From contig OX597817.1 in assembly GCA_951406725.2 (NCBI GenBank), forward strand, positions 164,796,001 to 164,860,000: DNA of 64,000 bases, in the 5' to 3' direction. Made by a program: the position numbers and the translations under genes. The notes below the pieces were generated by a model. It searched no databases, was not told the DNA's origin, and worked only from the letters and a program-made list of their open reading frames with translations. This document shows positions 4,094 through 64,000 of the stretch, in pieces (positions within the stretch are counted from its first letter, which is position 1; the number at the start of each line of letters is the position of its first letter). The stretch is from Octopus vulgaris. Lineage: Eukaryota.

Positions 4094-4373
4094 TGAAAGA
4101 ATAAAATAAACATTGTATTTGACAAAATAAAATCTGAATGCTGAAGGGTTTAAAACTCATTTTCACTTCAATCATAAAAGATAGATAGTAAAACAGGAAA
4201 TGAAAGAAGACTGATCAAGCTGTAAAGAAGAATTCTGACTGAGCCAAAGGCTAACCTTTGATATGTGTGGATGTAGAGCAATAAAACAATGAAGCCAATG
4301 TCTTTATAATGAAAAAAAAAATCTCTTTTCTCGACCAGTGGGACTTGCCTGGTTTTGTTTATTCTGTTTCCAG

Positions 4374-4488: not shown

Positions 4489-4583
4489 GTAAACATCTTG
4501 TTTCTCAGTTTACTACTTATTACTAGTGCGACTAATAATATGCTAATGACAGTAGTAGTAGTTGTGGTGGTGGTGGTGGTAAC

Positions 4584-4612
<29 letters not shown>

Positions 4613-4622
<10 letters not shown>

Positions 4623-29669: not shown

Positions 29670-30156
29670 ATATATATAAATTCACTGAGAGACTTTTCCA
29701 CCCAAAAGTTTTCGAAAATTTTCACCGAAAATATTCTCCAAAAATTTGTCAAAAATGTTCACCGAATGTTTTACCCAAAAAGTTTTCGAAAATTTCCACC
29801 GAAAATTTTACCCTTAAATTTTCCGAAAATTTTAACCAAAAAGTTTTCGAAAATTTTCACCGAAAATTTTACCCCAAAATTTTTCGAACTTTTCATCAAA
29901 AATTTTTCGAAAATTTTCACCGCTGGCCTTTCATACCTTCTGATTTTGGCCGCGCTGGCCTTCCATACTTTGTGATTTTGGCACCGCTGGCCTTCCATAC
30001 TTTGTGATTTTGGCACCACTGGCCTTCCATACTCTTTTCGAAAATTTTCCCCCAAAAATTTGTAGAAAAATTTTACCAAAGAATTTTCCAGGAAATTAAA
30101 AAAAGATTTTTGTAAAATTTTCACCGAAAACTTAACCCAAAAATTTTACCCATAAA

Positions 30157-40900: not shown

Positions 40901-41026
40901 AAATGTTCACCGAAAATTTCACCCAAAAAGTTTTCGAGAATTTTACCCTAAAATTTTTCCGAAAATTTTAACCAAAAATATTTCGAAAATTTTCACCGAA
41001 TATTTTACCCAAAAATTTTTAATCAC

Positions 41027-41064
<38 letters not shown>

Positions 41065-41095
41065 AAATTCACTGCGGAGAGACTTTTTAACACTA

Positions 41096-41127
<32 letters not shown>

Positions 41128-42526: not shown

Positions 42527-42564
<38 letters not shown>

Positions 42565-42643
42565 AAATTCACTGCGGAGAGACTTTTTTAACACTGTGTA
42601 TATATATCTTTATAAAATTAACTGTGGAGAGAATTTTGAACAC

Positions 42644-42697
<54 letters not shown>

Positions 42698-42719
42698 TCA
42701 CTGTGGAGAGAATTTTGAA

Positions 42720-42757
<38 letters not shown>

Positions 42758-42769
42758 TTACATATATAT

Positions 42770-43408
42770 TGTTACGACAGGGTGGGACCTCCGATTCGAA
42801 CTGTTACGGAAATCCTCACACAGGCCCGTTCGATGCAGCGAATAAGCTACGGAAACTCGTCGGAGAGAGGAGAGAGAGGAGATATACACAACAACAACAA
42901 CAACAGCAGCAGCCCAGAGGCAATCGAGGGAGACGCAATGAGCTAAAACGGCAACAACTGCTGGCTTACATTCAACAACAGTTTATATGACAATCAATTG
43001 TTACACATCAAGATACATCAACGCATTTAAGGGAAACAACAAATCAATACATCATACAACAGATCAAAGCATTTAAACATGCATGTAACAATATAACAGT
43101 GTTCATACACAAACAAGTTCAGATCAAATAATGTTCACGATACGTCACAGTCCAATCAGAACACTTCGATACATTATACAATGTTCGTATCACAACAATT
43201 CACGTTAAAATTCAACGTTCATTATCGTCTACATCAGAGTCCTTCTTTTTCTCTCTTCTTTCTCTTCTTTTCTTTTACATCGTAACACGTATCAATACAT
43301 AATCAAATACCTTAATTCCTAACTGAACAGCCAGTGTCCGATCCTGCACTCCATCTCTCTCTCAATACTGCTAACTCCAGCTCGCCAGCTCTCGCCTCCC
43401 AATCGCTT
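42770..43408. mobile_element. left part of the LTR (variant A), truncated
   Basis: Same start and same breakpoint as the 37342 copy. Confidence 0.8.
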
Positions 43409-45133
43409 TTCGAAAATTTTCACCGAAAATTTTACCCAAAATTTTTCCGAAAACTTTAACCAAAAAGTTTTCGAAAATTTTCACCGAAAATTTTACCCAA
43501 AAATTTTCCGAAAATTTCAACCAAAAAGTTTTCGAAAATTTTCACCGAAAAGATTACCCAAAAATTTACCGAAAATTTCACCTAAAAAGTTTTCAAAAAT
43601 TTTCACTGAAGATTTTCCCCAAAAATATTTCGAAAATTTTCACCGAAAATATCAAGTATAAAGTTTCCGAAAATTTTCACCGAGAATTTTACCCAAAAAT
43701 TTTGCGAAAATCTTCGACGAAAATTTAGTGAAAATTTTCACCGAAAATTTTACACAAAAATTTTCCGAAAATTTCAACCAATAAGTTTTTGAAAATTTTC
43801 ACCGAAAAGATTACCCAATAATTTACCCAAAATTTCACCTAAAAATTTTTCAAAAATTTTCACTGAAGATTCTCCCCAAAAATATTTCGAAAATTTTCAC
43901 CGAAAATTTTCACCCTAAAATTTTACCCAAAATTTTTCCGAAAATTTTAACCAAAATTTTTCGAGAATTTTACCCAAAACTTTTTCGAACTTTTCACTCC
44001 AAAAGGATTTTGAAAATTTTTAACCAAAAAGATTTCGAAAATTTTCACCGAATATTTTACCCAAAAATTTTCCGAAAATTTTAACTAAATTTCTTTCGAA
44101 AATTTTCACCGAAAATTTTACGCAAAAATTTTCCGAAAATTTTAACTAAACTTTTGTCGAAAATTTTCATCGAAAATTTTATCCAAAACTTTTCCGAAAA
44201 TTTTAACCAAAAAGTTTTCGAAAATTTTCACCAAAAATTTTTCGAACATTTCACCAAAAATTTTTCGAAAATTTACACCGAAAATGTTACCCGAAAATTT
44301 TACGGAAATTGGCACCGCTGGCTTTCCATACTTTGTGATTTGGGCATCGCTCTCTTTCAATACTTGGTGATTTTTGCACCACTGGCCTTCCATACTTTGT
44401 GATTTTCGCACCACTGGCCATCCGTACTTTGTGATTTTAGCACCGCTGGCCTTCCAACATTTTCGAAAGTTTTCGCAGAAGATTTTCCTAAAAATTTATT
44501 CAAAAAATTTACCCCAAAAATTTGTAGAAGATTTTATCCAAAAATTTTCCAAAAATTTTCCAAAAATTTTCAACGAAATTTTTCAAAAATTAAAAAAAAT
44601 TTTCACCCAAATTTTACCCAAAAATTTTTCCCATAAATTTTTTGAAAATTTCACCCAAAATTTTTCTAAAATTTTAACCGACAATATTCTCCAAATATTT
44701 GTCAAAATGTTCACCGAAAATTCTACCCAAAAATTTTCAAAAATTTTCACCGAAAATTTTAATCAAAAATTTTCCTAAAATTTTAGCCAAAAAGTTTTCG
44801 AAAATTTTAGCCAAAACTTTTTCGAACTTTTCACCCCAAAATGTTTTTGAAAATTTTCACTGAATATTTTCCCCCAAAATTTTTCGAAAATATTAAGTGA
44901 AAAGTTTTCGAAAATTTTCACTGAAAATTTTCACCGAAAATTTAACCCAAAAATTTTTCGAAAATTTCACCCAAAAAGTTTTCGAAAATATTCTAAATTT
45001 TGTCGGAAATGTTCACCGAAAATTTCACCCAAAAAAGTTTTCGAGAATTTTACCCTAAAATTTTTCCGAAAATTTTAACCAAAAATATTTCGAAAATTTT
45101 CACCGAATATTTTACCCAAAAATTTTTAATCAC

Positions 45134-45171
<38 letters not shown>

Positions 45172-45202
45172 AAATTCACTGCGGAGAGACTTTTTAACAC
45201 TA

Positions 45203-45234
<32 letters not shown>

Positions 45235-46629
45235 AATTTACATATATATATATATATATAAATTCACTGTGGAGAGACTTTTTCACCCAAAAATTTTCGA
45301 AAATTTTCACCGAAAATATTCTACAAAAATTTGTCAAAAATATTCACCGAAAATTTTACCCAAAAAGTTTTCAAAAATTTTCACCGAAAATTTTACCCAA
45401 AAATTTTTCAACCTTTTCACCAAAAATTTTTCGAGAATTTTCACCGAAAATTTTTAGGAAATTGGCACTACTGGCCTTCCATACTTTGTGATTTATCCGA
45501 AAATTTTAACCCAAAAAGTTTTCGAAAATTTCACCCAAAATGTTTTGAAAAATTTTCACTGAATATTTTCCCCCAAAATTTTTCGAAAATGTTCACCCAA
45601 AATAATCAAGTAAAATGTTTTCGAAAATTTTCACTGAAAATTTTCACCGAAAATTTAAATCCAAAAATTTTTCGAAAATTTTAACCGAAAATTTTCACCC
45701 TAAAATTTTACCCAAAATTTTTCCGAAAATTTTAACCAAAATTTTTCGAGAATTTTACCCAAAACTTTTTCGAACTTTTCACTCGAAAAGGATTTTGAAA
45801 ATTTTTAACCAAAAAGATTTCGAAAATTTTCACCGAATATTTTACCCAAAAATTTTCCGAAAATTTTAACTAAATTTTTTCGAAAATTTTCACCGAAAAT
45901 TTTAACTAAAAAGTTTTCGAAAATTTTCACCAAAAATTTTTCGAACATTTCACCAAAAATTTTTCGAAAATTTACACCGAAAATGTTACCCGAAAATTTT
46001 ACGGAAATTGGCACCGCTGGCTTTCCATACTTTGTGATTTGGGCACCGCTGGCCTTCCATACCTTGTGATTTTCGCACCACTGGCCATCCGTACTTTGTA
46101 ATTTTGGCACCGCTGGTCTTCCAACATTTTCGATAGTTTTCACAGAAGATTTTCCTAAAAAATTATTCAAAAATTTACCCCAAAATTTGTAGAAAATTTT
46201 ATCCAAAATTTTCACCCAAAATTTTACCCAAAAATTTTTCCCATAAACTTTTCGAAAATTTCACCAAAAAATTTTTCGAAAATTTTCACCGAAAATATTC
46301 TCCAAAAATTTGTCAAAAATGTTCACCGAAAATTTTACACAAAAAGTTTTCGAAAATTTTCACCGAAAATTTTAACCAAAAATTTTCCGAAAATTTTAAC
46401 CAAAAAGATTTCGAAAATTTTACCCAAAACTGTTTCGAAATTTTTCACCCCAAAATGTTATTGAAAATTTTCACAGAATATTTTCCCAAAAATTTTTCGA
46501 AAATTTTCACCGAAAACATCAAGTAAATAGTTTTCGAAAATTTTCACTGAAAATTTTCATCGAAAATATCAAGTAAAAAGTTTTTGAAAATTTTCACCGA
46601 AAATTTAACCCAAAAATTTTTAATCACTG

Positions 46630-46667
<38 letters not shown>

Positions 46668-46746
46668 AAATTCACTGCGGAGAGACTTTTTTAACACTGT
46701 GTATATATATCTTTATAAAATTAACTGTGGAGAGAATTTTGAACAC

Positions 46747-46798
<52 letters not shown>

Positions 46799-46820
46799 TC
46801 ACTGTGGAGAGAATTTTGAA

Positions 46821-46858
<38 letters not shown>

Positions 46859-46870
46859 TTACATATATAT

Positions 46871-47509
46871 TGTTACGACAGGGTGGGACCTCCGATTCGA
46901 ACTGTTACGGAAATCCTCACACAGGCCCGTTCGATGCAGCGAATAAGCTACGGAAACTCGTCGGAGAGAGGAGAGAGAGGAGATATACACAACAACAACA
47001 ACAACAGCAGCAGCCCAGAGGCAATCGAGGGAGACGCAATGAGCTAAAACGGCAACAACTGCTGGCTTACATTCAACAACAGTTTATATGACAATCAATT
47101 GTTACACATCAAGATACATCAACGCATTTAAGGGAAACAACAAATCAATACATCATACAACAGATCAAAGCATTTAAACATGCATGTAACAATATAACAG
47201 TGTTCATACACAAACAAGTTCAGATCAAATAATGTTCACGATACGTCACAGTCCAATCAGAACACTTCGATACATTATACAATGTTCGTATCACAACAAT
47301 TCACGTTAAAATTCAACGTTCATTATCGTCTACATCAGAGTCCTTCTTTTTCTCTCTTCTTTCTCTTCTTTTCTTTTACATCGTAACACGTATCAATACA
47401 TAATCAAATACCTTAATTCCTAACTGAACAGCCAGTGTCCGATCCTGCACTCCATCTCTCTCTCAATACTGCTAACTCCAGCTCGCCAGCTCTCGCCTCC
47501 CAATCGCTT
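46871..47509. mobile_element. left part of the LTR (variant A), truncated
   Basis: Essentially identical to 42770-43408. Confidence 0.8.
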
Positions 47510-48948
47510 TTCGAAAATTTTCACCGAAAATTTTACCCAAAATTTTTCCGAAAACTTTAACCAAAAAGTTTTCGAAAATTTTCACCGAAAATTTTACCCA
47601 AAAATTTTCCGAAAATTTCAACCAAAAAGTTTTCGAAAATTTTCACCGAAAAGATTACCCAAAAATTTACCGAAAATTTCACCTAAAAAGTTTTCAAAAA
47701 TTTTCACTGAAGATTTTCCCCAAAAATATTTCGAAAATTTTCACCGAAAATATCAAGTATAAAGTTTCCGAAAATTTTCACCGAGAATTTTACCCAAAAA
47801 TTTTGCGAAAATCTTCGACGAAAATTTAGTGAAAATTTTCACCGAAAATTTTACACAAAAATTTTCCGAAAATTTCAACCAATAAGTTTTTGAAAATTTT
47901 CACCGAAAAGATTACCCAATAATTTACCCAAAATTTCACCTAAAAATTTTTCAAAAATTTTCACTGAAGATTCTCCCCAAAAATATTTCGAAAATTTTCA
48001 CCGAAAATTTTCACCCTAAAATTTTACCCAAAATTTTTCCGAAAATTTTAACCAAAATTTTTCGAGAATTTTACCCAAAACTTTTTCGAACTTTTCACTC
48101 CAAAAGGATTTTGAAAATTTTTAACCAAAAAGATTTCGAAAATTTTCACCGAATATTTTACCCAAAAATTTTCCGAAAATTTTAACTAAATTTTTTTCGA
48201 AAATTTTCACCGAAAATTTTAACTAAAAAGTTTTCGAAAATTTTCACCAAAAATTTTTCGAACATTTCACCAAAAATTTTTCGAAAATTTACACCGAAAA
48301 TGTTACCCGAAAATTTTACGGAAATTGGCACCGCTGGCTTTCCATACTTTGTGATTTGGGCACCGCTGGCCTTCCATACCTTGTGATTTTCGCACCACTG
48401 GCCATCCGTACTTTGTGATTTTGGCACCACTGGTCTTCCAACATTTTCGATAGTTTTCACAGAAGATTTTCCTAAAAAATTATTCAAAAATTTACCCCAA
48501 AAATTTGTAGAAAATTTTATCCAAAAATTTTCACCCAAAATTTTACCCAAAAATTTTTACCATAAATTTTTCGAAAATTTCACCAAAAAATTTTTCGAAA
48601 ATTTTCACCGAAAATATTCTCCAAAAATTTGTCAAAAATGTTCACCGAAAATTTTACACAAAAAGTTTTCGAAAATTTTCACCGAAAATTTTAACCAAAA
48701 ATTTTCCGAAAATTTTAACCAAAAAGATTTCGAAAATTTTACCCAAAACTGTTTCGAAATTTTTCACCCCAAAATGTTATTGAAAATTTTCACTGAATAT
48801 TTTCCCAAAAATTTTTCGAAAATTTTCACCGAAAACATCAAGTAAATAGTTTTCGAAAATTTTCACTGAAAATTTTCATCGAAAATATCAAGTAAAAAGT
48901 TTTTGAAAATTTTCACCGAAAATTTAACCCAAAAATTTTTAATCACTG

Positions 48949-48979
<31 letters not shown>

Positions 48980-49061
48980 GCAAAATTCACTGCGGAGAGA
49001 CTTTTTTAACACTGTGTATATATATCTTTATAAAATTAACTGTGGAGAGAATTTTGAACAC

Positions 49062-49116
<55 letters not shown>

Positions 49117-49140
49117 GACTGTGGAGAGAAATTTGAACAC

Positions 49141-49172
<32 letters not shown>

Positions 49173-49187
49173 AATTTACATATATAT

Positions 49188-49810
49188 TGTTACGACAGGG
49201 TGGGACCCCCGATTCGAACTGTTACGGAAATCCTCGTTCGATGCAGCGAATAATCTACGGTAACTCGTCGGAGAGAGGAGATATACATAACAACAACAAC
49301 AACAACATCATTAGCCCAGAGGCAATCGAGGGAGACGCAATGAGGCAAAACGGCAACAACTGCTGGCTTACATTCAACAACAGTTTATATGACAATCAAT
49401 TGTTACACATCAAGATACATCAACGCATTTAAGGGAAACAACAAATCAATACATCATACAACCGATCAAAGCATTTAAACATGCATGTAACAATATAACA
49501 GTGTTCATACACAAACAAGTTCAGATCAAATAATGTTCACGATACGTCACAGTCCAATCAGAACACTTCGATACATTATACAATGTTCGTATCACAACAA
49601 TTCACGTTAAAATTCAACGTTCATTATCGTCTACATCAGAGTCCTTCTTTTTCTCTCTTCTTTCTCTTCTTTTCTTTTACATCGTAACACGTATCAATAC
49701 ATAATCAAATACCTTAATTCCTAACTGAACAGCCAGTGTCCGATCCTGCACTCCATCTCTCTCTCAATACTGCTAACTCCAGCTCGCCAGCTCTCGCCTC
49801 CCAATCGCTT
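49188..49810. mobile_element. left part of the LTR (variant B), truncated
   Basis: Shares the diagnostic deletions of the 37342 copy. Confidence 0.8.
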
Positions 49811-52800
49811 TTCGAAAATTTTCACCGAAAATTTTACCCAAAATTTTTCCGAAAACTTTAACCAAAAAGTTTTCGAAAATTTTCACCGAAAATTTTGCCC
49901 AAAAATTTTCCGAAAATTTCAACCAAAAAGTTTTCGAAATTTTCACCGAAAAGATTACCCAAAAATTTACCGAAAATTTCACCTAAAAAGTTTTCAAAAA
50001 TTTTCACTGAAGATTTTCCCCAAAAATATTTCGAAAATTTTCACCGAAAATATCAAGTATAAAGTTTCCGAAAATTTTCACCGAGAATTTTACCCAAAAA
50101 TTTTGCGAAAATCTTCGACGAAAATTTAGTGAAAATTTTCACCGAAAATTTTACACAAAAATTTTCCGAAAATTTCAACCAATAAGTTTTTGAAAATTTT
50201 CACCGAAAAGATTACCCAAAAATTTACCGAAAATTTCACCTAAAAATTTTTCAAAAATTTTCACTGAAGATTCTCCCCAAAAATATTTCGAAAATTTTCA
50301 CCGAAAATATCAAGTAAAAAGTTTCCGAAAATTTTCACCGAAAATTTTACCCAAAAATTTTTTCCATAAATTTTTCGAAAATTTCAGCCAAAAAGTTTTC
50401 GATAATTTTCACCGAAAATTTTACCCAAAAATTTTTCGAATATGTTCACAAAAAATTTTGCCCCAAAATATTTAGAAAATTTTACCCAAAAATTTTAACT
50501 CAAAAAGGTTTCGAAAATTTCACCCAAAAAGTTTTCGAAAATTTTCACTGAATATTTTCGCCAAAACTTTTTGGAAAATTTTCACCGAAAATTTTACCCA
50601 AAAATTTTTCGAACATTTAACCAAAAATTTTTCGAAAATTTTCACCAAAAAGGTTTCCCGGAAATTTTTCGGAAATTGGCACCGCTTGCTTTCCATACTA
50701 TGTGATTTTGGCACCACTTGCCTTCCATATTTCACCGAAAATGTTACCCAAAATTTTTAGCAAATTGGTACCGCTGGCCTTTTATACTTTGTGATTTATC
50801 CGAAAATTTTAAACCAAAAACTTTTCGAAAATATCACCCAAAAATATTTCGAAAATTTTCACCCAAAATATCAAGTAAAAAGGTTTCGAAAAGTTTACCG
50901 AAAATTTAATCCAAAAATTTTTCGAAAATTTTAACCAAAATTTTTCGAAAATTTTAACCAAAATGTTTCGAAAATTTTCACCGAAAAATTTACCCAAAAA
51001 TTTTTCAAAAATTTTCACCGCTGGCCTTCCATACTTTCTGATTTTGGCACCGCTGGCCTTCCATACCTTTTCGAAAATTTTCCCCCACAATTTGTAGAAA
51101 ATTTTACACAAAAATTTTCACCGAAATTTTTCAAATTTTTTCTAAAATTTTCACTGAAATTTTACGAAAAAATTTTCACCGCAATTTTTCAAAAATTTTT
51201 TAAATATTTTCACCGGAAATATCAAGTAAAAAGTTTTCGAAAATTTTCACCGAAAATATTCTCCAAAAATATGTCGAAAATGTTCACCGAAAATTTTACC
51301 CAAAAAGTTATCGAAAACTATTACCGAAAATTTTACCTTAACATTTTTCCGAAAATTTTAACCAAAAAGTTTTCGAAAATTTTCACCGAAAATTTTAACC
51401 TTTTTGGTTAAAATTTTACCCAAAACTTTTTCGAACTTTTCACCACAAAATGTTTTTGAAAATTTTGATTGAATATTTTCCCCAAAAATTTTTCGAAAAT
51501 TTTCACCGAAAATATCAAGTAAAAAGTTTTGAAAAATTTTCACTGAATATTTTCCCCGAAAATTTAATCCAAAAATTTTTCGAAAATTTCACCCAAAAAG
51601 TTTTCGAAAATTTTCAACGAAAATATTCTAAAATTTGTCGAAAATGTTCACCGAAAATTTCACCCAAAAAGTTTTCGAGAATTTCACCCTAAAATTTTTC
51701 CGAAAATTTTAACCAAAAAGATTTCGAAAATTTTCACCGAATATTTTACCCAAAAATCTTCCGAAAATTTTAACTAAATTTTTTTCGAAAATTTTCACCG
51801 AAAATTTTACGCAAAAATTTTCCGAAAATTTTAACTAAACTTTTGTCGAAAATTTTCATCGAAAATTTTACCCAAAACTTTTCCGAAAATTTTAACCAAA
51901 AAGTTTTCGAAAATTTTCACCAAAAATTTTTCGAACATTTCACCAAAATTTTTCGAAAATTTACACCGAAAATGTTACCCGAAAATTTTACGGAAATTGG
52001 CACCGCTGGCTTTCCATACTTTGTGATTTGGGCATCGCTCTCTTTCAATACTTGGTGATTTTTGCACCACTGGCCTTCCATACTTTGTGATTTTCGCACC
52101 ACTGGCCATCCGTACTTTGTGATTTTAGCACCGCTGGCCTTCCAACATTTTCGAAAGTTTTCGCAGAAGATTTTCCTAAAAAATTATTCAAAAATTTACC
52201 CAAAAAATTTGTAGAAGATTTTATCCAAAAATTTTCCAAAAATTTTCAACGAAATTTTTCAAAAATTTTAAAAAAAATTTCACCCAAAATTTTCTAAATT
52301 TTCACCCAAATTTTACCCAAAAAATTTTTCCCATAAATTTTTTGAAAATTTCACCCAAAATTTTTTTCTAAAATTTTAACCGACAATATTCTCCAAATAT
52401 TTGTCAAAATGTTCACCGAAAATTTTCAATTTTCACCGACAAAAACCAAAATTTTCAAAAATTTTCACCGAAAATTTTAATCAAAAATTTTCCTAAAATT
52501 TTAGCCAAAAAGTTTTCGAAAATTTTAGCCAAAACTTTTTCGAACTTTTCACCCCAAAATGTTTTTGAAAATTTTCACTGAATATTTTCCCCAAAAATTT
52601 TTCGAAAATATTAAGTGAAAAGTTTTCGAAAATTTTCACTGAAAATTTTCACCGAAAATTTAACCCAAAAATTTTTCGAAAATTTCACCCAAAAAGTTTT
52701 CGAAAATATTCTAAATTTTGTCGGAAATGTTCACCGAAAATTTCACCCAAAAAGTTTTCGAGAATTTTACCCTAAAATTTTTCCGAAAATTTTAACCAAA

Positions 52801-52850
52801 AATATTTCGAAAATTTTCACCGAATATTTTACCCAAAAATTTTTAATCAC

Positions 52851-52888
<38 letters not shown>

Positions 52889-55800
52889 AAATTCACTGTG
52901 GAGAAACTTTTTCACCCAAAAAATTTTCGAAAATTTTCACCGAAAATATTCTACAAAAATTTGTCAAAAATATTCACCGAAAATTTTACCCAAAAAGTTT
53001 TCAAAAATTTTCACCGAAAATTTTACCCAAAAATTTTTCAACCTTTTCACCAAAATTTTTCGAGAATTTTCACCGAAAATTTTTAGGAAATTGGCACTAC
53101 TGGCCTTCCATACTTTGTGATTTATCCGAAAATTTTAACCCAAAAAGTTTTCGAAAATTTCACCCAAAATGTTTTGAAAAATTTTCACTGAATATTTTCC
53201 CCCAAAATTTTTCGAAAATGTTCACCCAAAATAATCAAGTAAAATGTTTTCGAAAATTTTCACTGAAAATTTTCACCGAAAATTTAAATCCAAAAATTTT
53301 TCGAAAATTTTAACCGAAAATTTTCATCCTAAAATTTTACCCAAAATTTTTCCGAAAATTTTAACCAAAATTTTTCGAGAATTTTACCCAAAACTTTTTC
53401 GAACTTTTCACTCCAAAAGGATTTTGAAAATTTTTAACCAAAAAGATTTCGAAAATTTTCACCGAATATTTTACCCAAAAATTTTCCGAAAATTTTAACT
53501 AAATTTTTTTCGAAAATTTTCACCGAAAATTTTAACTAAAAAGTTTTCGAAAATTTTCACCAAAAATTTTTCGAACATTTCACCAAAAATTTTTCGAAAA
53601 TTTACACCGAAAATGTTACCCGAAAATTTTACGGAAATTGGCACCGCTGGCTTTCCATACTTTGTGATTTGGGCACCGCTGGCCTTCCATACTTTGTGAT
53701 TTTCGCACCACTGGCCATCCGTACTTTGTGATTTTGGCACCGCTGGTCTTCCAACATTTTCGATAGTTTTCACAGAAGATTTTCCTAAAAAATTATTCAA
53801 AAATTTACCCCAAAAATTTGTAGAAAATTTTATCCAAAAATTTTCACCCAAAATTTTAACCAAAAATTTTTCCCATAAATTTTTCGAAAATTTCACCAAA
53901 AAATTTTTCGAAAATTTTCACCGAAAATATTCTCCAAAAATTTGTCAAAAATGTTCACCGAAAATTTTACCCAAAAAGTTATCGAAAACTATTACCGAAA
54001 ATTTTACCTTAACATTTTTCCGAAAATTTTAACCAAAAAGTTTTCGAAAATTTTCACCGAAAATTTTAACCTTTTTGGTTAAAATTTTACCCAAAACTTT
54101 TTCGAACTTTTCACCACAAAATGTTTTTGAAAATTTTGATTGAATATTTTCCCCAAAAATTTTTCGAAAATTTTCACCGAAAATATCAAATAAAAAGTTT
54201 TGAAAAATTTTCACTGAATATTTTCCCCGAAAATTTAATCCAAAAATTTTTCGAAAATTTCACCCAAAAAGTTTTCGAAAATTTTCAACGAAAATATTCT
54301 CCTAAAATTTGTCGAAAATGTTCACCGAAAATTTCACCCAAAAAGTTTTCGAGAATTTCACCCTAAAATTTTTCCGAAAATTTTAACCAAAAAGATTTCG
54401 AAAATTTTCACCAAAAATTTTTCGAACATTTCACCAAAAATTTTTCGAAAATTTACACCGAAAATGTTACCCGAAAATTTTACGGAAATTGGCACCGCTG
54501 GCTTTCCATACTTTGTGATTTGGGCATCGCTCTCTTTCAATACTTGGTGATTTTTGCACCACTGGCCTTCCATACTTTGTGATTTTCGCACCACTGGCCA
54601 TCCGTACTTTGTGATTTTGGCACCGCTGGCCTTCCAACATTTTCGAAAGTTTTCGCAGAAGATTTTCCTAAAAAATTATTCAAAAATTTACCCAAAAAAT
54701 TTGTAGATTTTATCCAAAAATTTTCCAAAAATTTTCAACGAAATTTTTCAAAAATTTTAAAAAATTTTCACCCAAATTTTACCCAAAAATTTTTCCCATA
54801 AATTTTTTGAAAATTTCACCCAAAATTTTTCTAAAATTTTAACCGACAATATTCTCCAAAAATTTGTCAAAATGTTCACCGAAAATTCTACCCAAAAAAT
54901 TTTCAAAAATTTTCACCGAAAATTTTAATCAAAAATTTTCCTAAAATTTTAGCCAAAAAGTTTTCGAAAATTTTAGCCAAAACTTTTTCGAACTTTTCAC
55001 CCCAAAATGTTTTTGAAAATTTTCACTGAATATTTTCCCCAAAAATTTTTCGAAAATATTAAGTGAAAAGTTTTCGAAAATTTTCACTGAAAATTTTCAC
55101 CGAAAATTTAACCCAAAAATTTTTCGAAAATATCACCCAAAAAGTTTTCGAAAATATTCTCCTAAATTTTGTCGGAAATGTTCACCGAAAATTTCACCCA
55201 AAAAGTTTTCGAGAATTTTACCCTAAAATTTTTCCGAAAATTTTAACCAAAAATATTTCGAAAATTTTCACCGAATATTTTACCCAAAAATTTTCCGAAA
55301 ATTTTAACCAAATTTTTTTCGAAAATTTTCACCGAAAATTTTATCCAAAAATTTTCCGAAAATTTTAACCAAAAAGTTTTCGAAAATTTTCACCAAAAAT
55401 TTTTCGAACATTTCACCAGAAATTTTTCAAAAATTTACACAGAAAATTTTACGGAAATTGGCACCTCTGGCTTTCCATACTTTGTGATTTGGGCACCGCT
55501 GTCTTTCCATACTTTGTGATTTTTGCACCACTGCCTTCCATACTTTGTGATTTTCGCACCACTGGCCATCCGTACTTTGTGATTTTGGCACCGCTGGCCT
55601 TTTCGAAAGTTTTCACCGATTTTCCTAAAAAATTATTCAAAAATTTACGCCAAAAATTTGTAGAAAATTTTATCCAAAAATTTTCCAAAAATTTTCACCG
55701 AAATTTTTCAAAAATTTTTCTAAAATTTTCACCGAAAATTTTACACAAAATTTAATAGAAAATTTTGACCAAAAATTTTCCAAAAATTTTCACCGAAATT

Positions 55801-56260
55801 TTTCAAAAGTTTTTGTAAAATTTTCACTGCAAATTTTACACAAAAATTTTCACCGAAATTTTTCAAAAATCTTTCGGAAATTTTCACCGAAAATATCAAG
55901 TAAAAAGTTTTCGCAAATTTTCACCGAAAACTTAACCCCAAAACTTTTCCCATAAATTTTTTCGAAAATCTCCCCCAAAGTTTTCGAAAATTTTCAACGA
56001 AAATTTTACCCACAAATTTTCCGAAAATTTTAACCAAAAATTTTTCGAAAATTTTCACCGAAAATATCAAGTAAAAAGTTTTCGAAGATTTTCACTGAAA
56101 ATTTTCACCGAAAATATTAAAAAGTTTTCGAAAATTTTCACTGAAAATTTTCATCGAAAATATCAAGTAAAAAGTTTTTGAAAATTTTCACTGAAAATTT
56201 TCACCGAAAATTTAACCCAAAAATTTTTAATCACTGTATGTATATATATATATATATATA

Positions 56261-56852
56261 CATACTGATCGAAAAAAAGGATGCCAAAATGGCCGAGAAT
56301 GTGAACTCCTTCACCCAAAGATGTGCCGCAATTCGCTGAGAAAAAAAGAATGTTTTGGTGAGAATTGCAAATTTATGCACCGGAAGGGTACAATTCGCAT
56401 AAAAACTACTGAACCCACACCACCAGGACCAAGCTCAGCAGGGTATGAAAACCATTTCCCAAAAATGCGGAAACCAGGTCATGGCTCAGCAGGGTATGAA
56501 AAACCATTTCCCAAAAATGCGGAACCCAGGTCATGGCTCAACAGTGAATGAAAATCATGCTACTCAATTGCATACATCAGCTGTAACAAACCCAAACTCG
56601 CAGAAATTCGATATAGTAATGAATGAAAACAGTTTTTTAGGCATAATCTACCAACTACAACAACAGCTGTACTCCATACAGACGACTCAGCAAAACCAGG
56701 CAACATTGATACAAAGGCTGACACCTGGACTTACAGGGCACATACAACAAATACAGACAGCCCAGCAGACCGAATATCCAGTCAGCACAGTCCCAGCAAC
56801 TACAACAGTCTTGCCAACAATAGGGCAGATGTATCCGGTACAACAAGCATAA
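56261..56852 (+). CDS. LINE ORF1, C-terminal part (CCCH zinc fingers, Q-rich tail), with a 1-nt frameshift near 56500
   Basis: HTDRKKGCQNGRECELLHPKMCRNSLRKKECFGENCKFMH gives C-x8-C-x4-C-x3-H. An extra A in the second 51-bp repeat shifts the frame. TAA at 56850-56852. Confidence 0.7.
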
Positions 56853-57730
56853 TAACAGCAAATATCCAGGGTCTTTATCCGAAAACAAAACAGTGTAAAG
56901 TCCCTTTCTTGGAAGAATTAGCAAGAGAAAACAACTCCAAAATAATTGGAATTACTGAAAGTCATCTCAACGAAAACATCCGCAACAGCGAAATCACAAT
57001 CAATAGATTCAACATCTTCAGATGTGATAGACAAGGCAGATCCCATGGGGGCGTTATCATGTATATCCATGATACCTATGCATGCATAGAACTTGTCAAT
57101 GAATCAAATGCCTACTGCAACCTGCTGTGCATAAAAATCATCCAACTTAATACAGTTGTAACAATAATGTACAGACCGCCAAACAGCCCAACATTATCCT
57201 TCACTGAGCCACTGACGAAGCTCCAACAAATTCTGGGAAACATGGCAAGTCCAATGCCAGACATTATCCTCCTTGGTGACTTCAACTTCCCTAACATCAT
57301 CTGGCCACATGGACACATACTAAAACTGGGGACAAAAGCTGAACAAATACAGGCAGCCAAACTGTTGGAAGTCACAGAGAAATTATACCTCAAACAAATG
57401 ATGACAGAAGCAACAAGAAATAATAATACGATCGACTTGGTTTTCACCAACAACGAGGACACGCTATTTGACCTTCACTCAACCCCAACAATCCTTTCAG
57501 ACCACAATATTATTGAAATGCATTTACACATTGGTAATGAGCCCAATGCCATAACTCTTAAACAAAAGGACATGCCAAAGCTATGCAGGTATGATTATCA
57601 CCAGGCAAATTGGGAAACTATTAACAACCAGTTACAAATCATTGACTGGGATCTCTACCTTACTGGGCCAGATAAACACAAGAAATTCTTAAACAAGGTC
57701 GAAGAAATATGTGAAAAAATGTTCCTCTAA
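56627..57730 (+). CDS. LINE ORF2 N-terminal part: APE-type endonuclease, no initiating AUG
   Basis: The frame is open from 56627. Motifs ANIQGL, ITESHL, DR..RSHGGV, YRPP, GDFN, IDLVF and SDH. Confidence 0.9.
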   Translation, partial: KQFFRHNLPTTTTAVLHTDDSAKPGNIDTKADTWTYRAHTTNTDSPADRISSQHSPSNYNSLANNRADVSGTTSIITANIQGLYPKTKQCKVPFLEELARENNSKIIGITESHLNENIRNSEITINRFNIFRCDRQGRSHGGVIMYIHDTYACIELVNESNAYCNLLCIKIIQLNTVVTIMYRPPNSPTLSFTEPLTKLQQILGNMASPMPDIILLGDFNFPNIIWPHGHILKLGTKAEQIQAAKLLEVTEKLYLKQMMTEATRNNNTIDLVFTNNEDTLFDLHSTPTILSDHNIIEMHLHIGNEPNAITLKQKDMPKLCRYDYHQANWETINNQLQIIDWDLYLTGPDKHKKFLNKVEEICEKMFL

Positions 57731-59838
57731 AGAAAACCAAGTCCACAAAAAAACCTGTACCACGGGAGCGAAAGATCCTGATGCGCAAAAGGTCAAGACT
57801 AAGAAACAAAACATCTAAGCTGACATCAAAACATGAATTACAGAAAGTCCTTGACCAAATATACAGATTAGAAGACAATCTAAAACAACACTATGATGAA
57901 GAACGTAACAATGCAGAAAAGAGAGCCATAGAAAACATCAAGAAAAATCCAAAATGTTTCTACAGTTTTGCAAAGAAATACTCGAACACCAAGTCAACAG
58001 TAGGACCTCTCCAGAGACAAAATGGGGATGTGGTGAATAACCCTATTGAAATGGCAGAAATGTTGGGTCAACAGTATGAAAGTGTCTTCAGTGAGCCATC
58101 TAAAACCATGAAGATCCATGACCCAGGAAAATTCTTCAAGGATATCGACCATACTAAACCTACCCTATCCGACATTGATTTCAACCCAGAAGACATAGCA
58201 AGAGCCATAGACAAGCTCTCCATGCACTCGGCTGCGGGGCCTGACGGTTTCAATGCCATGATACTTAAAAACTGCAAGGTACAATTGTCGAAACCCCTTT
58301 ACATGATATGGAGGGAATCTATGGAGAATGGCAAAATACCAAATACATATAAAGAAGCACACATAACTCCAATACATAAAGGGGACAGCAAATCAAAACC
58401 AAAGAACTACCGACCAATCTCACTGACATCACACATTATCAAGGTCTTCGAAAGAATAGTTCGTGGAAAACTGGTTGAGTTCCTGGAATCCAACAATCTG
58501 ATGAATTGCAACCAGCATGGATTCAGGTTAGGTAGATCATGCCTTTCCCAACTACTGACACACCATGACCAAATCCTAGAAAATCTAGAGAATGGATACA
58601 ACACAGATGTTATCTACCTCGACTTTGCCAAGGCATTTGACAAGGTAGATCATGGCATCCTGGGTCACAAACTTCGAAAGCTAGGAGTAGGAGGAAAAGT
58701 TGGTACATGGATACATGAGTTCCTTACAAATAGAACTCAAACAGTCACTGTGAATGGAACCCATTCAACACCATCACCTGTGACCAGCAGTGTTCCTCAG
58801 GGTACAGTACTCGGCCCAATCCTGTTTCTCATCCTCATCTCTGACATAGATGAAGATACAACCAGCAACGTCTCATCCTTTGCTGATGACACCAGGGTCA
58901 TGAGACAAATCAAAGACGAGGTGGATATAGAGGCCTTACAAAAGGACCTGACCACCATATATAAATGGCAGGAAACAAACAACATGTTGTTCAATGATAA
59001 GAAGTTTGAACTAATTCGCTACGGAACAGATCAAGATCTGAAAAATACAACAAACTACAGAAACCCATCAGGACAACAAATAATGGAAAAACAGTATGTG
59101 AAAGATTTAGGCATCCACATGGGAACCAACCTAAAATTCAGAGAACACCTTGACTCAGTCTGTCTTACTGCAAGAAAGTACAGCGGGTGGATCTTGCGCA
59201 CCTTCAAATCAAGAGATACCTCAACAATGAAAACCCTCTGGAACAGTATGATACTTCCGAGGATTGACTACTGTTCTCAGTTGTGGTCACCAACAACAAA
59301 GGGCCAACTATCTAAGATAGAATCGCTCCAAAGAAATTTTACCTCATACTTCTCAGAAACGAGGGACCTGGACTATTGGCAAAGACTCAAAACCTTGAGG
59401 ATGTACTCAATAGAAAGAAGATTTGAGCGATACCGAATTATATACATTTGGAAAATGATAGAGCAGAAGGTGCCAAACTTTGGTATCAAAACCTACCACT
59501 CACTGCGCCACGGAAGACGCTGCCAGCTGCCACCAATCAACAAAAAGGCTGGCCAGGCAGCAAAAACCATGCGAGAATCAAGTCTGTTGGTTCGAGGAGC
59601 ACAACTGTTCAACTCCATTCCGGTACATGTCAGAAATCTATCAGGATGCAGTGTGGAATCATTCAAATTGCAACTGGATAGATACTTAAGCACCATTAGA
59701 GATGAACCCCATCTCCCAGGATATACACAACGAGCACAAACTGACTCAAACTCGCTCCTACACATGTCAAAATTAAACAGAGAATACAACCTGGCAACCA
59801 CACCAGACTCTGAGGGTGGAGTCTTCGACTTGGCCTGA
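57718..59838 (+). CDS. LINE ORF2 C-terminal part: reverse transcriptase
   Basis: Motifs AGPDG, NYRPISLTS, QHGFR, YLDFAKAFDKVDH, VPQGTVLGP, FADD and KDLG. One extra A in the A6 run at 57714-57719 would join it to the endonuclease frame. Confidence 0.95.
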   Translation, partial: NVPLKKTKSTKKPVPRERKILMRKRSRLRNKTSKLTSKHELQKVLDQIYRLEDNLKQHYDEERNNAEKRAIENIKKNPKCFYSFAKKYSNTKSTVGPLQRQNGDVVNNPIEMAEMLGQQYESVFSEPSKTMKIHDPGKFFKDIDHTKPTLSDIDFNPEDIARAIDKLSMHSAAGPDGFNAMILKNCKVQLSKPLYMIWRESMENGKIPNTYKEAHITPIHKGDSKSKPKNYRPISLTSHIIKVFERIVRGKLVEFLESNNLMNCNQHGFRLGRSCLSQLLTHHDQILENLENGYNTDVIYLDFAKAFDKVDHGILGHKLRKLGVGGKVGTWIHEFLTNRTQTVTVNGTHSTPSPVTSSVPQGTVLGPILFLILISDIDEDTTSNVSSFADDTRVMRQIKDEVDIEALQKDLTTIYKWQETNNMLFNDKKFELIRYGTDQDLKNTTNYRNPSGQQIMEKQYVKDLGIHMGTNLKFREHLDSVCLTARKYSGWILRTFKSRDTSTMKTLWNSMILPRIDYCSQLWSPTTKGQLSKIESLQRNFTSYFSETRDLDYWQRLKTLRMYSIERRFERYRIIYIWKMIEQKVPNFGIKTYHSLRHGRRCQLPPINKKAGQAAKTMRESSLLVRGAQLFNSIPVHVRNLSGCSVESFKLQLDRYLSTIRDEPHLPGYTQRAQTDSNSLLHMSKLNREYNLATTPDSEGGVFDLA

Positions 59839-59967
59839 GCATGGACTCAAACCCAAATGAAATGAAATATATATATATATATATATGCAAAATTCACTGC
59901 GGAGAAACTTTTTTAACACTGTGTATATATATCTTTATAAAATTAACTGTGGAGAGACTTTTGAACA

Positions 59968-60104: not shown

Positions 60105-61243
60105 AGTTACGACAGGGTGGGACCTCCGATTCGAACTGTTACGGAAATCCTCACACAGGCCCGTTCGATGCAGCGAATAAGCTACGGAAACTCGTCGGAG
60201 AGAGGAGAGAGAGGAGATATACACAACAACAACAACAACAACAACAGCAGCAGCCCAGAGGCAATCGAGAGAGACGCAATGAGGCAAAACGGCAACAACT
60301 GCTGGCTTACATTCAACAACAGTTTATATGACAATCAATTGTTACACATCAAGATACATCAACGCATTTAAGGGAAACAACAAATCAATACATCATACAA
60401 CAGATCAAAGCATTTAAACATGCATGTAACAATATAACAGTGTTCATACACAAAACAAGTTCAGATCAAATAATGTTCACGATACGTCACAGTCCAATCA
60501 GAACACTTCGATACATTATACAATGTTCGTATCACAACAATTCACGTTACAATTCAAAGTTCATTATCGTCTACATCAGAGTCCTTCTTTTTCTCTCTTC
60601 TTTCTCTTCTTTTCTTTTACATCGTAACACGTATCAATACATAATCAAATACCTTAATTTCTAACTGAAAAGCCAGTGTCCCATCCTGCATTCCATCTCT
60701 CTCTCAATACTGCTAACTCCAGCTCGCCAGCTCTCGCCTCCCAATCGCTTGCTCCTAAAATTCCAACTCCTTGCCGACTTCCAAGATCCGTCTGTGCTCT
60801 TCAACGACCGACTACCAACTACCCAAAACCTCACTTGCTCTCTCTCCTTCCCACTACCCTAATCTCCATCTATCCCTACTGCTTATAGCCTCTCTATCTG
60901 CCCTGGTCCCTAACTGCCTATCTCTATCGCCCGCTGCTGCTACCCTCTCATGATAGCTCTGCCAGACTCTCTGCCTGTCCTTCTCTGCCCCCTCATCCTC
61001 TCTCACTGCTAATATCCTCTCTATCTGCTCTCAGCCCTTACTCTAACTTTATCTCACTACTGCTAGATTCTTCCTCACATCTCTCTCTGACCCCTAATCG
61101 ACCGCACAAGGTCAAAGAGGTCCCTCCAAAACCCCATTAATCTCCCAGTAAACAAAGGGCTGTCTCTTTTCTTCCAGTCCTGCCGGCACCATCATTCAGA
61201 AAGTGGGTCACCAAGAAATACTGCACTAGCCAAACCCATAACA
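60105..61243. mobile_element. solo LTR, second full-length copy
   Basis: Collinear with 27393-28531 (first base T>A) and has the same flanks. Confidence 0.8.
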
Positions 61244-61640
61244 ATATATATAAATTCACTGAGAGACTTTTTCACCAAAAAGTTTTCGAAAATTTTCACC
61301 GAAAATATTCTCCAAAAATTTGTCAAAAATGTTCACCGAATGTTTTACCCAAAAAGTTTTCGAAAATTTCCACCGAAAATTTTACCCAAAAATTTTCCGA
61401 CAATTTTAACCAAAAAGTTTTCGAAAATTTTCACCGAAAATTTTACCCCAAAATTTTTCGAACTTTTCATCAAAAATTTTTCGAAAATTTTCACCGCTGG
61501 CTTTCCATACCTTCTGATTTTGGCCGCGCTGGCCTTCCATACTTTGTGATTTTGGCACCACTGGCCTTCCATACATTTTTCGAAAATTTTCCCCCAAAAA
61601 TTTGTAGAAAAATTTAACCAAAGAATTTTCCAACCCATAA
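61244..61640. repeat. A4T4 satellite with a 32-bp island
   Basis: Near-copy of 29670-30156. Confidence 0.9.
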
Positions 61641-64000
61641 ATCTTTGATCTCTGTCGATATTCCATTTGATCCCTGTCGGCATTCCTCTTTGATTTCTGT
61701 CGGAACTCCCCTTTGAACTATGTCGGCATTCCTCTTTGATCTCTGTCGGCATTTCACTTTGATCTTTGACGGCATTCCTCTTTGATCTCTGTCGGTACTC
61801 CTCTTTGATCTCTGTCGGCATTCCTATTTGATCTCTGTCGGTACTCTTCTTTGATCTCTGTCGGTACTCCTATTTGATATCTGTCGGTACTCCCCTTTGA
61901 TCTCTCTCGGTATTCCTCTTTGATCTCCGTCGGTTATCCCCTTTGATCTCTGTCGGCATTCCACTTTGATCTCTGACATCATTCCTCTTTGATCTCTGTC
62001 GGCATTCCTCTTTGATCTCTGTCGGTACTCCTCTTTGATCTCTGTCGGCACTCCTTTTTGATCTCTGTCGGTACTCCTCTTTGATCTTTTCGGTACTTTC
62101 CTTTGATCTCTGTTGGCATTCCTCTTTGATCTCTGTCGGTTCTCCTATTTGATATCTGTCGGTACTCTCCTTTGTTCTCTCTCAGTACACCTCTTTAATC
62201 TCTGTCGGCACTCCTCTTTGATCTCTGTCGGTATTCCTCTTTGATCTTTGTCGGTCCTCTCCTTTGATCTTTGTCGGCATTCCTCTTTGATCTCTGTCGG
62301 CATTCCTCTTTGATCTCTGTCGGTCCTCTCCTTTAATCTCTGTCGGCATTCCTCTTTGATCTCTGACGGCATTCCTCTTTGATCTCTGTCGGTACTCCTC
62401 TTTGATCTCTGTCGGTACTCCTCTTTGATCTCTATTTTTGTTGTTTTTGTAAAATCTCAGAAAATGATTAAAAATTCACATTTTTATCAAATTATTTTGA
62501 TCTCCGACGGCATTCCTCTTTGAACTCTGTCGGTACTCCCCTTTGATCTCTATCGGCATTCCTCTTTGATCTCTGTCGGTACCCCTCTTTGATCTCTGTC
62601 GGCATTCCTCTTTGATCTCTGTCGGCATTCCGCTTTGATCTCTATCGGCATTCCTCTTTGATCTCTGACGGCATTCCTCATTGATCTCTGTCGGTACTCC
62701 TCTTTGATCTCTATCGGCAATCCTCTTTGATCTCTGTCGGTACTCCCCTTTGATCTCTGTCGGCATTCCTCTTTGATCTCTGTCGGATGAATTCTTTGAT
62801 CTTTGTTGGCATTCCTCTTTGATCTCTGACGGCATTCCTCTTTGATCTCTGTCGGTACTCCCCTCTGATCTCTGTCGGCATTCCTCTTTGGTCTATGTCG
62901 GTACTCCTCTTTGATCTCTGTCGGCATTCCTCTTTGATCTCGTCGGTACTCGTATTGGATATCTGTCGGTACTCCCCTTGATCTCTCTCGGTATTCCTAT
63001 TTGATCTTTGTCGGTAATCCCCTTTGATCTCTGTCGGCAATCCTCTTTGACCTCTGACGGCATTTTTATTTGATCTCTGACGGCATTCCTCTTTGATCTC
63101 TGTCGGTACTCCCCATTGATCTCTGTCGGCATTCCTCTTTGATCTATGTCGGTACTCCTCTTTGATCTCTGTTGGCATTCCTCTTTGATCTCTGTCGGTA
63201 CTCCTATTTGATATCTGTCGGTACTCCCCTTTGATCTCTCTCGGCATTCCTATTTGATCTTTGTCGGTAATCCCCTTTGATCTATGTCGGTACTCCTCTT
63301 TGATATCTGTCGGCAATCCTATTTGATGTCTGTCGGCACTTCTATTTGATCTCTGTCGGTACTTCCCTTTGATCTCTGTCGGCATTCCTCTTTGATCTCT
63401 GTCGGTATTCCTATTTGATCTCTGTCGGTACTCCCCCTTGATTTCTCTCAGTACTCCTCTTTGAGCTCTGTTTGTACTCACCTTTGATCTCTGTCGGCAT
63501 TCCTCTTTGGTCTCTGACGGCGTTCCTCTTTGATCTCTGTCGGTACTCCCCTTTGATCTCTGTCGGCATTCCTCTTTGATCTCTGACGGCATTCCTCTTT
63601 GATCTCTGTCGGCATTCCTCTTTGATATTTGACGGCATTTATCTTTGATATCTGTCGGCAATCCTCTTTGATCTCTGTCGGCATTCCTCTTTGATCTCTG
63701 CCGTAATCCTATTTGATCTCTGTCGGTACTCCCCTTTGATCTCTCTCGGTAGCCTCTTTGATCTCTGACGGCATTCCTCTGTGATCTCTGTCGGTATTCC
63801 CCTTTGATCTCTGTCGGCATTCCTCTTTGATCTCTGTCAGTACTCCTCTTTGATCACTGTCGGCACTCCTCTTTGATCTCTCTCGGTACTCCCCTTTGAT
63901 CTCTATCCGCATTCCCCTTTGATCTCTGTCGGCAATCCTCTTTGATCTCTGTCGGCATTCTTCTTTGATCCCTGTCGGTACTCCTATTTGATCTCAGGCG
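61641..64000. repeat. 23-bp satellite, second array, runs off the window
   Basis: Same monomer and same entry junction (cccataaatctttgatctctgtcgatattcc) as at 30150. Confidence 0.97.

What the first reader, a model, noticed from the sequence alone, without database searches (positions are those of the whole stretch)
56624..56911. LINE ORF2 appears to need a retrovirus-style -1 ribosomal frameshift at U_UUU_UUA
Seen: ORF1 reads AGT TTT TTA GGC (S-F-L-G) at 56631-56642, which puts the heptamer T_TTT_TTA (56633-56639) in correct X_XXY_YYZ phase. The -1 frame has TGA at 56624-56626, opens 6 nt before the heptamer and stays stop-free through a ~220-nt overlap with the end of ORF1 into the endonuclease (..TTSIITANIQGL..ITESHL). 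It has no ATG until inside the APE domain (~57059), after conserved motifs. Known: U_UUU_UUA is the HIV-1 gag-pol slippery site, and -1 frameshifting is typical of retroviruses and some LTR elements, whereas well-studied LINEs such as L1 express ORF2 by reinitiation. Inference: this family makes an ORF1-EN-RT fusion protein by frameshifting. I see no obvious downstream hairpin or pseudoknot by eye.
Basis: partly seen in the sequence, partly recalled or inferred. Interest (0 to 1): 0.82.

Follow-up and report, generated by a model that had tools for sequence, protein, structure and literature searches.

The report
HIV-type slippery site in octopus LINE
An octopus jumping gene (a LINE) and dozens of distant relatives keep the same seven-letter slippery sequence as HIV right where the reading frame of their second gene opens, one base out of step with the first gene and often with no start codon of its own, so ribosomes likely slip back one base and make a fused protein, a route seldom proposed for LINEs.

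Summary
Observation confirmed. The window holds a 5'-truncated, broken copy of a young LINE (ORF1: PHD-like plus three CCCH fingers; ORF2: APE-RT). Copies with long ORFs show the same junction: ORF2 in the -1 frame, 226-nt overlap, first AUG at codon 145 inside the endonuclease; U_UUU_UUA is intact in 28 of 29 copies. Distant relatives decide it: of 49 metagenomic/own families reaching the endonuclease (median EN identity 29%), 45 have ORF2 in -1; 38 of 45 carry in-phase T_TTT_TTA (control Phe-Leu pairs in ORF2: 3 of 112), and the other 7 carry other known shift sites. The -1 frame opens a median 9 nt before the site and has no stop after it (about 96 expected). A stem starting about 8 nt downstream is enriched in relatives but absent in this family. 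Splicing and stop-coupled reinitiation fit poorly. Best reading: programmed -1 frameshift giving an ORF1-EN-RT fusion (0.85); no translation data. Precedent: -1 shifting claimed for Dictyostelium TRE5-A/TRE3-A. The scan earlier noted similar junctions in other LINEs (e1-8041403, e1-7350016).

The parts
56263..59868 (+). 5'-truncated copy of a LINE family whose full length is about 5.7 kb; inserted in a (TA)n tract of an AT-rich satellite
56263..56852 (+). 3' part of ORF1 (full ORF1 469 aa: PHD-like finger, three CCCH fingers, Phe-Leu-led helix, Q/P-rich tail); 1-nt insertion near 56503 breaks it in this copy
56312..56391 (+). coding stretch of the last CCCH finger, used as the anchor to find relatives
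56624..56626 (+). last -1 frame stop (TGA) before ORF2
   Evidence: 29 of 29 covering copies
56633..56639 (+). slippery heptamer U_UUU_UUA in ORF1 phase (predicted -1 shift site), followed by G
56627..56852 (+). 226-nt dual-frame overlap: ORF1 tail in frame 0, predicted S/T/P-rich linker to the endonuclease in frame -1
56850..56852 (+). ORF1 stop TAA, 11 nt before the first-strand Asn codon (56861) of the endonuclease
57059..57061 (+). first ATG of the ORF2 frame, inside the endonuclease
56627..59838 (+). ORF2 (1070 aa stop to stop in intact copies L032, L038): APE endonuclease about 56852-57514, RT about 58378-59040; broken by a 1-nt deletion near 57718 in this copy
59855..59868 (+). 3' (AAATG)n tail

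Best explanation
This LINE family and its relatives likely make their endonuclease-reverse transcriptase by a programmed -1 ribosomal frameshift at the conserved U_UUU_UUA site inside ORF1, which would yield an ORF1-EN-RT fusion protein. Shown: the site, its phase, the -1 frame of ORF2, the stop-free overlap, the lack of a usable AUG and the conservation of all these across deep divergence. Inferred: most ribosomes read through the site and finish ORF1 (469 aa, with the helix and Q-rich tail); a minority slip back one base on tRNA-Phe/tRNA-Leu, replace the last 70 ORF1 residues with a roughly 75-residue S/T/P-rich linker and continue into EN-RT (about 1,465 aa, 167 kDa), as Gag-Pol is made in retroviruses. 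This would set a low ORF2:ORF1 ratio and tie the RT to zinc fingers that would bind its own RNA. In about half of the relatives a stem starting about 8 nt downstream is the predicted stimulator; the octopus family has none, so it would rely on the U6A-G site plus an unstructured or distant stimulator, at probably low efficiency. No protease domain was found in ORF2, so the fusion would stay uncut.
For: Own family: heptamer in 28 of 29 covering copies; first Met at codon 145 in the long-ORF2 copies. Proteins: 126 of 133 ORF1 relatives have Phe-Leu in an otherwise unalignable tail (shuffles: mean 28); the residue before it is never K/E/Q/M/W, whose codons cannot end in U (0 of 126, 28% expected). 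DNA: 45 of 49 families have EN in -1; 38 of 45 have in-phase T_TTT_TTA; 66 of 71 families with a tail Phe-Leu use exactly these codons versus 3 of 112 Phe-Leu pairs in ORF2. The other 7 have G_GAU_UUU (4), G_GUU_UUU (2) or A_AAA_AAC (1) within 54 nt of the frame opening, sites or tolerated triplets named in reviews. 43 of 45 have a canonical or tolerated site within 60 nt of the -1 frame opening; background 11% of 1254 ORF2 windows. 0 stops in -1 after the site versus about 96 expected under synonymous recoding in 38 families; control frames match expectation (281/278 upstream, 186/159 in +1). Median EN identity 29%, RT identity to the own family 31-61%. The 51 nt after the site fold better than synonymously recoded versions (65 families, mean z -1.28, p 1e-7; 30 below -1.5; next two windows not significant), and 5'-arm pairing rises at +8. 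U_UUU_UUA is the HIV site and the G-rich 3' context matters there. In-frame finger-EN-RT ORFs exist (L122, P0027).
Against: No translation evidence of any kind. The octopus family and its nearest relatives (L059, L060, L090) show no stem at the canonical spacing (own z -0.34). G follows the site in 61 of 66 families, which also makes an AG. 17 of 44 families do have an in-frame AUG before the EN Asn, 5 within 30 nt of the ORF1 stop. The 7 alternative sites were recognised after the fact. Families are related, so they are not 45 independent origins, and only ORF1s with one exact finger spacing were sampled (120 of 147 relatives fit it).
Confidence: 0.85

Rival explanations
1. ORF2 is made separately by termination-reinitiation or internal initiation at a non-AUG codon near the ORF1 stop (here AUA codons overlap the stop as AUAA/UAAUA, like SART1 UAAUG or AUG-independent L1 ORF2); the heptamer does something else.
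For: ORF1 stops close to the EN start in most families; in the window two AUA codons overlap the stop; L1 ORF2 tolerates non-AUG starts and SART1 uses UAAUG; non-AUG reinitiation occurs in caliciviruses.
Against: Does not explain the conserved heptamer codons, the frame opening at the heptamer, or 70-529 nt kept stop-free. The stop-to-Asn distance varies from 2 to 371 nt and is 11 nt or less in 20 of 44 families, so a restart at the stop would clip the first EN strand (strand length recalled from the APE fold). 27 of 44 have no usable AUG.
Confidence: 0.07
2. TTTTTTAG is a splice acceptor; an intron from a donor in ORF1 joins ORF1 to ORF2 in frame.
For: AG follows in 61 of 66 families; an automatic gene model (P0004) joins ORF1 to RHNLP at this point; a GG|GTATGA donor-like word in matching phase lies in the ORF1 repeats.
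Against: 5 of 66 lack the G and the G_GAU_UUU and A_AAA_AAC families lack this AG; no pyrimidine tract upstream (43% Y); strict T6 with no T/C exchange; none of 21 genomic copies examined has a deletion ending at the AG, although spliced RNA would be copied back; contigs of runs X1 and X5 cross the site unbroken and none of 4 runs shows a joint there (weak: contigs drop rare forms and RNA status is a guess).
Confidence: 0.04
3. The U run causes polymerase (transcriptional) slippage that adds one U to some transcripts, putting ORF2 in frame without ribosomal slippage.
For: A homopolymer run sits at the frame opening.
Against: The run is fixed at six and in codon phase; replacements such as G_GAU_UUU have only 4 U; no insertion listed at the site in laid contigs or in 29 copies, though added-U transcripts would be copied into the genome.
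Confidence: 0.02
4. Phe-Leu is only a conserved helix start (capping box S/D/N-F-L-E) and the codons and overlap are incidental.
For: Residues around Phe-Leu fit a helix cap (S, D, H, N before; E, D after; capping rule recalled).
Against: Amino-acid constraint cannot fix synonymous codons: 66 of 71 versus 3 of 112; leaves ORF2 without any way to be translated.
Confidence: 0.02

Closest known systems
HIV-1 gag-pol -1 frameshift (and alphavirus 6K/TF)
   Same: Same heptamer U_UUU_UUA followed by G (PMC5009743 passages); structural ORF upstream, enzyme ORF in -1, long overlap; stem about 8 nt downstream in many relatives. Semliki Forest virus shows a stimulator need not be a structure.
   Different: Non-LTR element with APE-RT, no protease or integrase domain found; no stem in the octopus family; frameshifting not measured.
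Dictyostelium TRE5-A and TRE3-A (L1-clade non-LTR elements)
   Same: APE-type LINEs stated in a review to require a -1 frameshift for ORF2 (PMC5911963 legend).
   Different: Different clade and ORF1; the review cites the 1992 and 1998 sequence descriptions, which I did not read, so the strength of that evidence is unknown to me; here a defined heptamer, phase, overlap and stem are shown conserved over 45 families.
SART1 (UAAUG coupling), mammalian L1 and Zorro3 (reinitiation-type ORF2 translation)
   Same: Bicistronic LINE RNA with low ORF2 output.
   Different: Those make a separate ORF2p from a start at or after the ORF1 stop; here the ORF2 frame is held open far upstream, to a slippery site.
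CR1/L2-lineage LINEs with PHD-bearing ORF1 (Metcalfe and Casane 2014, PMC4120745)
   Same: PHD-type finger in ORF1, APE-RT ORF2, short 3' tandem tail.
   Different: Three CCCH fingers follow the PHD; that paper has no occurrence of 'CCCH', 'frameshift' or 'overlap'. Not the single-ORF RTE-2_OV of Octopus.

Membership tests
Programmed -1 ribosomal frameshift (eukaryotic, tandem slippage) | X_XXY_YYZ heptamer in phase with the upstream ORF | tested here: met
   definition from PMC3542737
Programmed -1 ribosomal frameshift (eukaryotic, tandem slippage) | Downstream ORF in -1 frame, open from the site, without its own start | tested here: met
   (own family and 27 of 44 have no usable AUG)
Programmed -1 ribosomal frameshift (eukaryotic, tandem slippage) | Site conserved at nucleotide level beyond amino-acid need | tested here: met
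   66 of 71 versus 3 of 112
Programmed -1 ribosomal frameshift (eukaryotic, tandem slippage) | 3' stimulatory structure 5-9 nt downstream | tested here: inconclusive
   not found in the octopus family; enriched across relatives, 30 of 65 below z -1.5
Programmed -1 ribosomal frameshift (eukaryotic, tandem slippage) | Transframe product shown experimentally | not testable with these tools
   no reporter, ribosome profiling or proteomics available
APE-type non-LTR retrotransposon (LINE) | APE + RT ORF2, dispersed 5'-truncated copies, tandem-repeat 3' tail | tested here: met
CR1 group | PHD-containing ORF1 | tested here: inconclusive
   Pfam PHD E 0.04, below the curated cut-off; Cys/His pattern invariant in 107 relatives; PHD also occurs in L2 lineage
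CR1 group | RT groups with CR1-group references in a tree | not tested
Stop-start reinitiation (SART1 type) | AUG overlapping or next to the ORF1 stop | tested here: not met
   none in the family (1 of 30 copies has TAATG by mutation); 5 of 44 relatives have an AUG within 30 nt

The most novel reading that the evidence does not exclude
A large, widespread class of LINEs (over 2,000 ORF1 clusters at 50% identity) uses a retrovirus-style -1 frameshift with an HIV-type heptamer and hairpin to make an uncut Gag-Pol-like ORF1-EN-RT protein, and the ORF1-plus-shift-site module is shared by two very distant RT lineages (31-34% RT identity), so frameshifting is a main, overlooked way that LINEs express ORF2.
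Probability: 0.6. Interest if true: 0.85.

Novelty: new variant of a known kind. Interest (0 to 1): 0.74.

Why it matters
How LINEs translate ORF2 is an open question (PMC3894237), and the tested cases point to reinitiation that gives a separate ORF2p. A conserved -1 site means a different particle design: the RT would be covalently tied to ORF1 zinc fingers and made at a fixed low ratio, as in retroviruses. It gives an exact 7-nt target for a reporter or retrotransposition test, supplies dozens of natural U6A sites with and without stems for studying frameshift stimulators, and means consensus libraries and gene models mis-start or mis-splice these ORF2s (P0004 is such a model).

Tried and rejected
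Folding of the octopus downstream region, plus a simple stem and H-type pseudoknot enumeration over 100 nt, found nothing convincing. RNAalifold on 25 families chosen by an Arg four codons after the site gave no consensus structure, so the stem is not one shared fold; 3' arms differ among families. The search for related loci with the 107-sequence ORF1 alignment could not run; a degenerate finger pattern was used instead; it found nothing in viral contigs and was not accepted for the own genome, so diverged families inside G000 were not surveyed. Search for longer fused ORF1-ORF2 proteins found none among 3663 candidates (weak). No RNA holder listed as RNA on record; expression is not shown. 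Cluster look-up of 10 ORF1 relatives gave no host names; the Atlas gave no taxa. The careful tree did not finish; only a quick EN tree of 40 of 45 families was obtained (L055, L081, L087, L090, L101 left out as too short). My first AUG count misplaced the EN start in one subclade and was redone against the Asn motif (44 of 45, L076 not placed). P0004's intron was rejected as a prediction, not evidence.

Full report
Observation. Every coordinate in the finding checks out: T_TTT_TTA at 56633-56639 in ORF1 phase, TGA at 56624-56626, a -1 frame open from 56627 through a 226-nt overlap into the endonuclease, first ATG at 57059. Four downstream windows fold no better than shuffles. Pfam finds APE-type endonuclease and RT domains. 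The window copy is dead: truncated at 56263, with 1-nt indels near 56503 and 57718.

The family. A 501-nt query scored 40 copies in G000 (a lower bound), 30 returned as loci. Twenty were fetched at 10 kb. The full element is about 5.7 kb with a 5' UTR of about 1.2 kb, an ATG-started ORF1 (469 aa) and ORF2 of 1070 codons stop to stop, intact in L032 and L038; wherever the ORF2 frame is open that far, the first Met is codon 145, apart from two broken copies with one at 140. The heptamer is intact in 28 of 29 covering copies and the upstream TGA in 29 of 29. These copies are 93-99% alike, so this shows the junction is the family's design, not that it is selected. ORF1 has a PHD-like finger (Pfam E 0.04, below cut-off) and three CCCH fingers. 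A protein 100% identical to ORF1 is labelled Octopus vulgaris by its sources. The 3' end is (AAATG)n.

Relatives as proteins. ORF1 has 2277 relatives at E up to 0.001 among 50%-identity representatives; the best 150 were listed. Of 147 examined, 133 had a tail of 40 residues or more after the last finger; 126 of 133 hold Phe-Leu (shuffled tails: mean 28, max 39). The preceding residue is never K, E, Q, M or W, the residues whose codons cannot end in U (0 of 126, 28% expected); the next residue has a G-starting codon in 111 of 126. A helix-capping box could explain part of this, so DNA was needed.

Relatives as DNA. A degenerate pattern for the last finger gave 120 metagenomic loci, 80 with flanks (hosts unknown). 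With L033 they form 89 clusters at under 75% nucleotide identity; 49 reach the endonuclease. EN is in -1 in 45, frame 0 in 3 and +1 in 1; those four still carry TTTTTTAG, three look like broken copies and L122 is one 1427-codon ORF. 38 of 45 have in-phase T_TTT_TTA in the overlap; over all clusters with a tail Phe-Leu, 66 of 71 use these codons against 3 of 112 Phe-Leu pairs in ORF2 of the same loci. The -1 frame opens a median 9 nt before the site and the ORF1 stop lies 70-529 nt after it. No -1 stop lies between site and ORF1 stop in 38 families, where synonymous recoding predicts about 96; upstream -1 stops (281 versus 278) and +1 stops (186 versus 159) match expectation; the octopus family alone is uninformative (P 0.55). 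The seven families without U6A have G_GAU_UUU (4), G_GUU_UUU (2) or A_AAA_AAC (1) near the opening; this was seen after the fact, but 43 of 45 families have a canonical or tolerated site within 60 nt of the opening against an 11% background. Median EN identity is 29% and RT identity to the octopus element 31-61% in 16 long loci, so silent sites should be saturated. Two deep ORF2 lineages, split by a long, fully supported branch in a quick tree of 40 families, both carry the arrangement.

Stimulator. The 50 nt after the site fold better than dinucleotide shuffles (66 families, mean z -0.81, p 0.0006; six other offsets not significant) and than synonymous recodings (65 families, mean z -1.28, p 1e-7; next windows p 0.65 and 0.06). 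5'-arm pairing rises at +8, within the 5-9 nt spacing given in PMC3542737. One subgroup uses a 7-bp stem; others pair the same 5' arm with a later 3' arm, and no single consensus fold emerged for 25 families. Against the reading: the octopus family (z -0.34) and its nearest relatives lack such a stem. Structure-free stimulation is known for Semliki Forest virus.

Rivals. Splicing: G follows in 61 of 66 families and a gene model uses the AG, but five lack the G, there is no pyrimidine tract, none of 21 genomic copies has the deletion, and contigs of two of four laid runs cross the site unbroken with no joint in any (weak). Reinitiation: 27 of 44 families have no usable AUG, 5 have one within 30 nt of the ORF1 stop, and the stop lies 11 nt or less before the first-strand Asn in 20 of 44. 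Polymerase slippage does not explain phase or the alternative sites.

Mechanism. Shown: architecture and its conservation. Inferred: tandem -1 slippage, an ORF1-EN-RT fusion of about 1,465 aa beside more abundant ORF1p, uncut because no protease domain was found. In-frame finger-EN-RT ORFs occur (L122; P0027, 3 members), while a search for longer fusions found none (weak).

Literature. I read passages, not whole texts, of PMC5009743 (first 300,000 of 449,034 characters held), PMC5405496, PMC5911963, PMC1965478, PMC3542737, PMC4120745, PMC9115989, PMC13343379, PMC3894237 and PMC2881922 (81, reference line only); no supplements. The 2016 frameshifting review names HeT-A as needing a frameshift within gag and favours unusual initiation for L1; a 2018 review says TRE5-A and TRE3-A need -1 frameshifting; Paramecium LINEs are suggested to use +1 shifting, reinitiation or readthrough. 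Ten searches listed no paper whose title or abstract start describes a conserved -1 heptamer in LINEs of this ORF1 type; the two CR1-group papers opened contain no 'frameshift'. The library lacks most subscription journals and I could not search Repbase notes, so prior mention is not excluded. Kojima 2005, Alisch 2006 and the primary TRE papers were seen only as citations. Earlier scan notes report U_UUA_AAC-stop and G_GAA_AAC-stop junctions in other LINEs; I did not test them, and they differ in having the site beside the ORF1 stop.

Verdict. Real, strongly conserved, most likely a programmed -1 frameshift; a new variant of a known mechanism in a group of LINEs where I found no description of it. 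Interest 0.74.

Noticed in passing
L070, L073, L120, L124 (also L076, L108, L113): A second ORF2 lineage with only 31-34% RT identity to the octopus element shares the same CCCH ORF1 and a -1 site, suggesting exchange of the ORF1-plus-shift-site module or a very old origin.
   Followed up: partly
L122; P0027: Single in-frame ORFs joining CCCH fingers to EN-RT: L122 keeps the heptamer (one contig, could be a mutation); P0027 lacks the Phe-Leu helix (3 member sequences).
   Followed up: partly
P0003, P0004, P0005: Copies of this LINE are annotated as host genes; P0004 is named 'fission process 1' and joins ORF1 to ORF2 by a predicted intron ending at the heptamer's AG.
   Followed up: partly
window 56430-56545; L033 6040-6160: A 51-nt tandem duplication in ORF1 is present in the window-like copies and absent in several more diverged ones, marking two subfamilies.
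   Followed up: partly
L033 3830-5050: Long 5' UTR (about 1.2 kb) with an internal duplication of about 160 nt (4192-4349 and 4524-4690).
   Followed up: no
window 56240-56262 and 59869-59886; loci L001-L030: The window copy splits a (TA)n tract; 6 of 24 checked 5' junctions lie next to (TA)n, not tested against background.
   Followed up: partly
window 60107-61204: A 1.1-kb insert in the satellite whose minus strand starts TGTTA and ends TAACT, possibly a solo LTR.
   Followed up: no
window 38000-56240 and 61220-61520; 30000-37000 and 61520-64000: Long AT-rich satellite (about 27% GC) and a strongly strand-skewed tandem repeat surround the element.
   Followed up: no
heptamer plus next base, 62 of 66 families: U_UUU_UUA followed by G or A puts a UAG/UAA stop in the +1 (-2) frame directly at the site, which would end -2 slippage products at once.
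   Followed up: no
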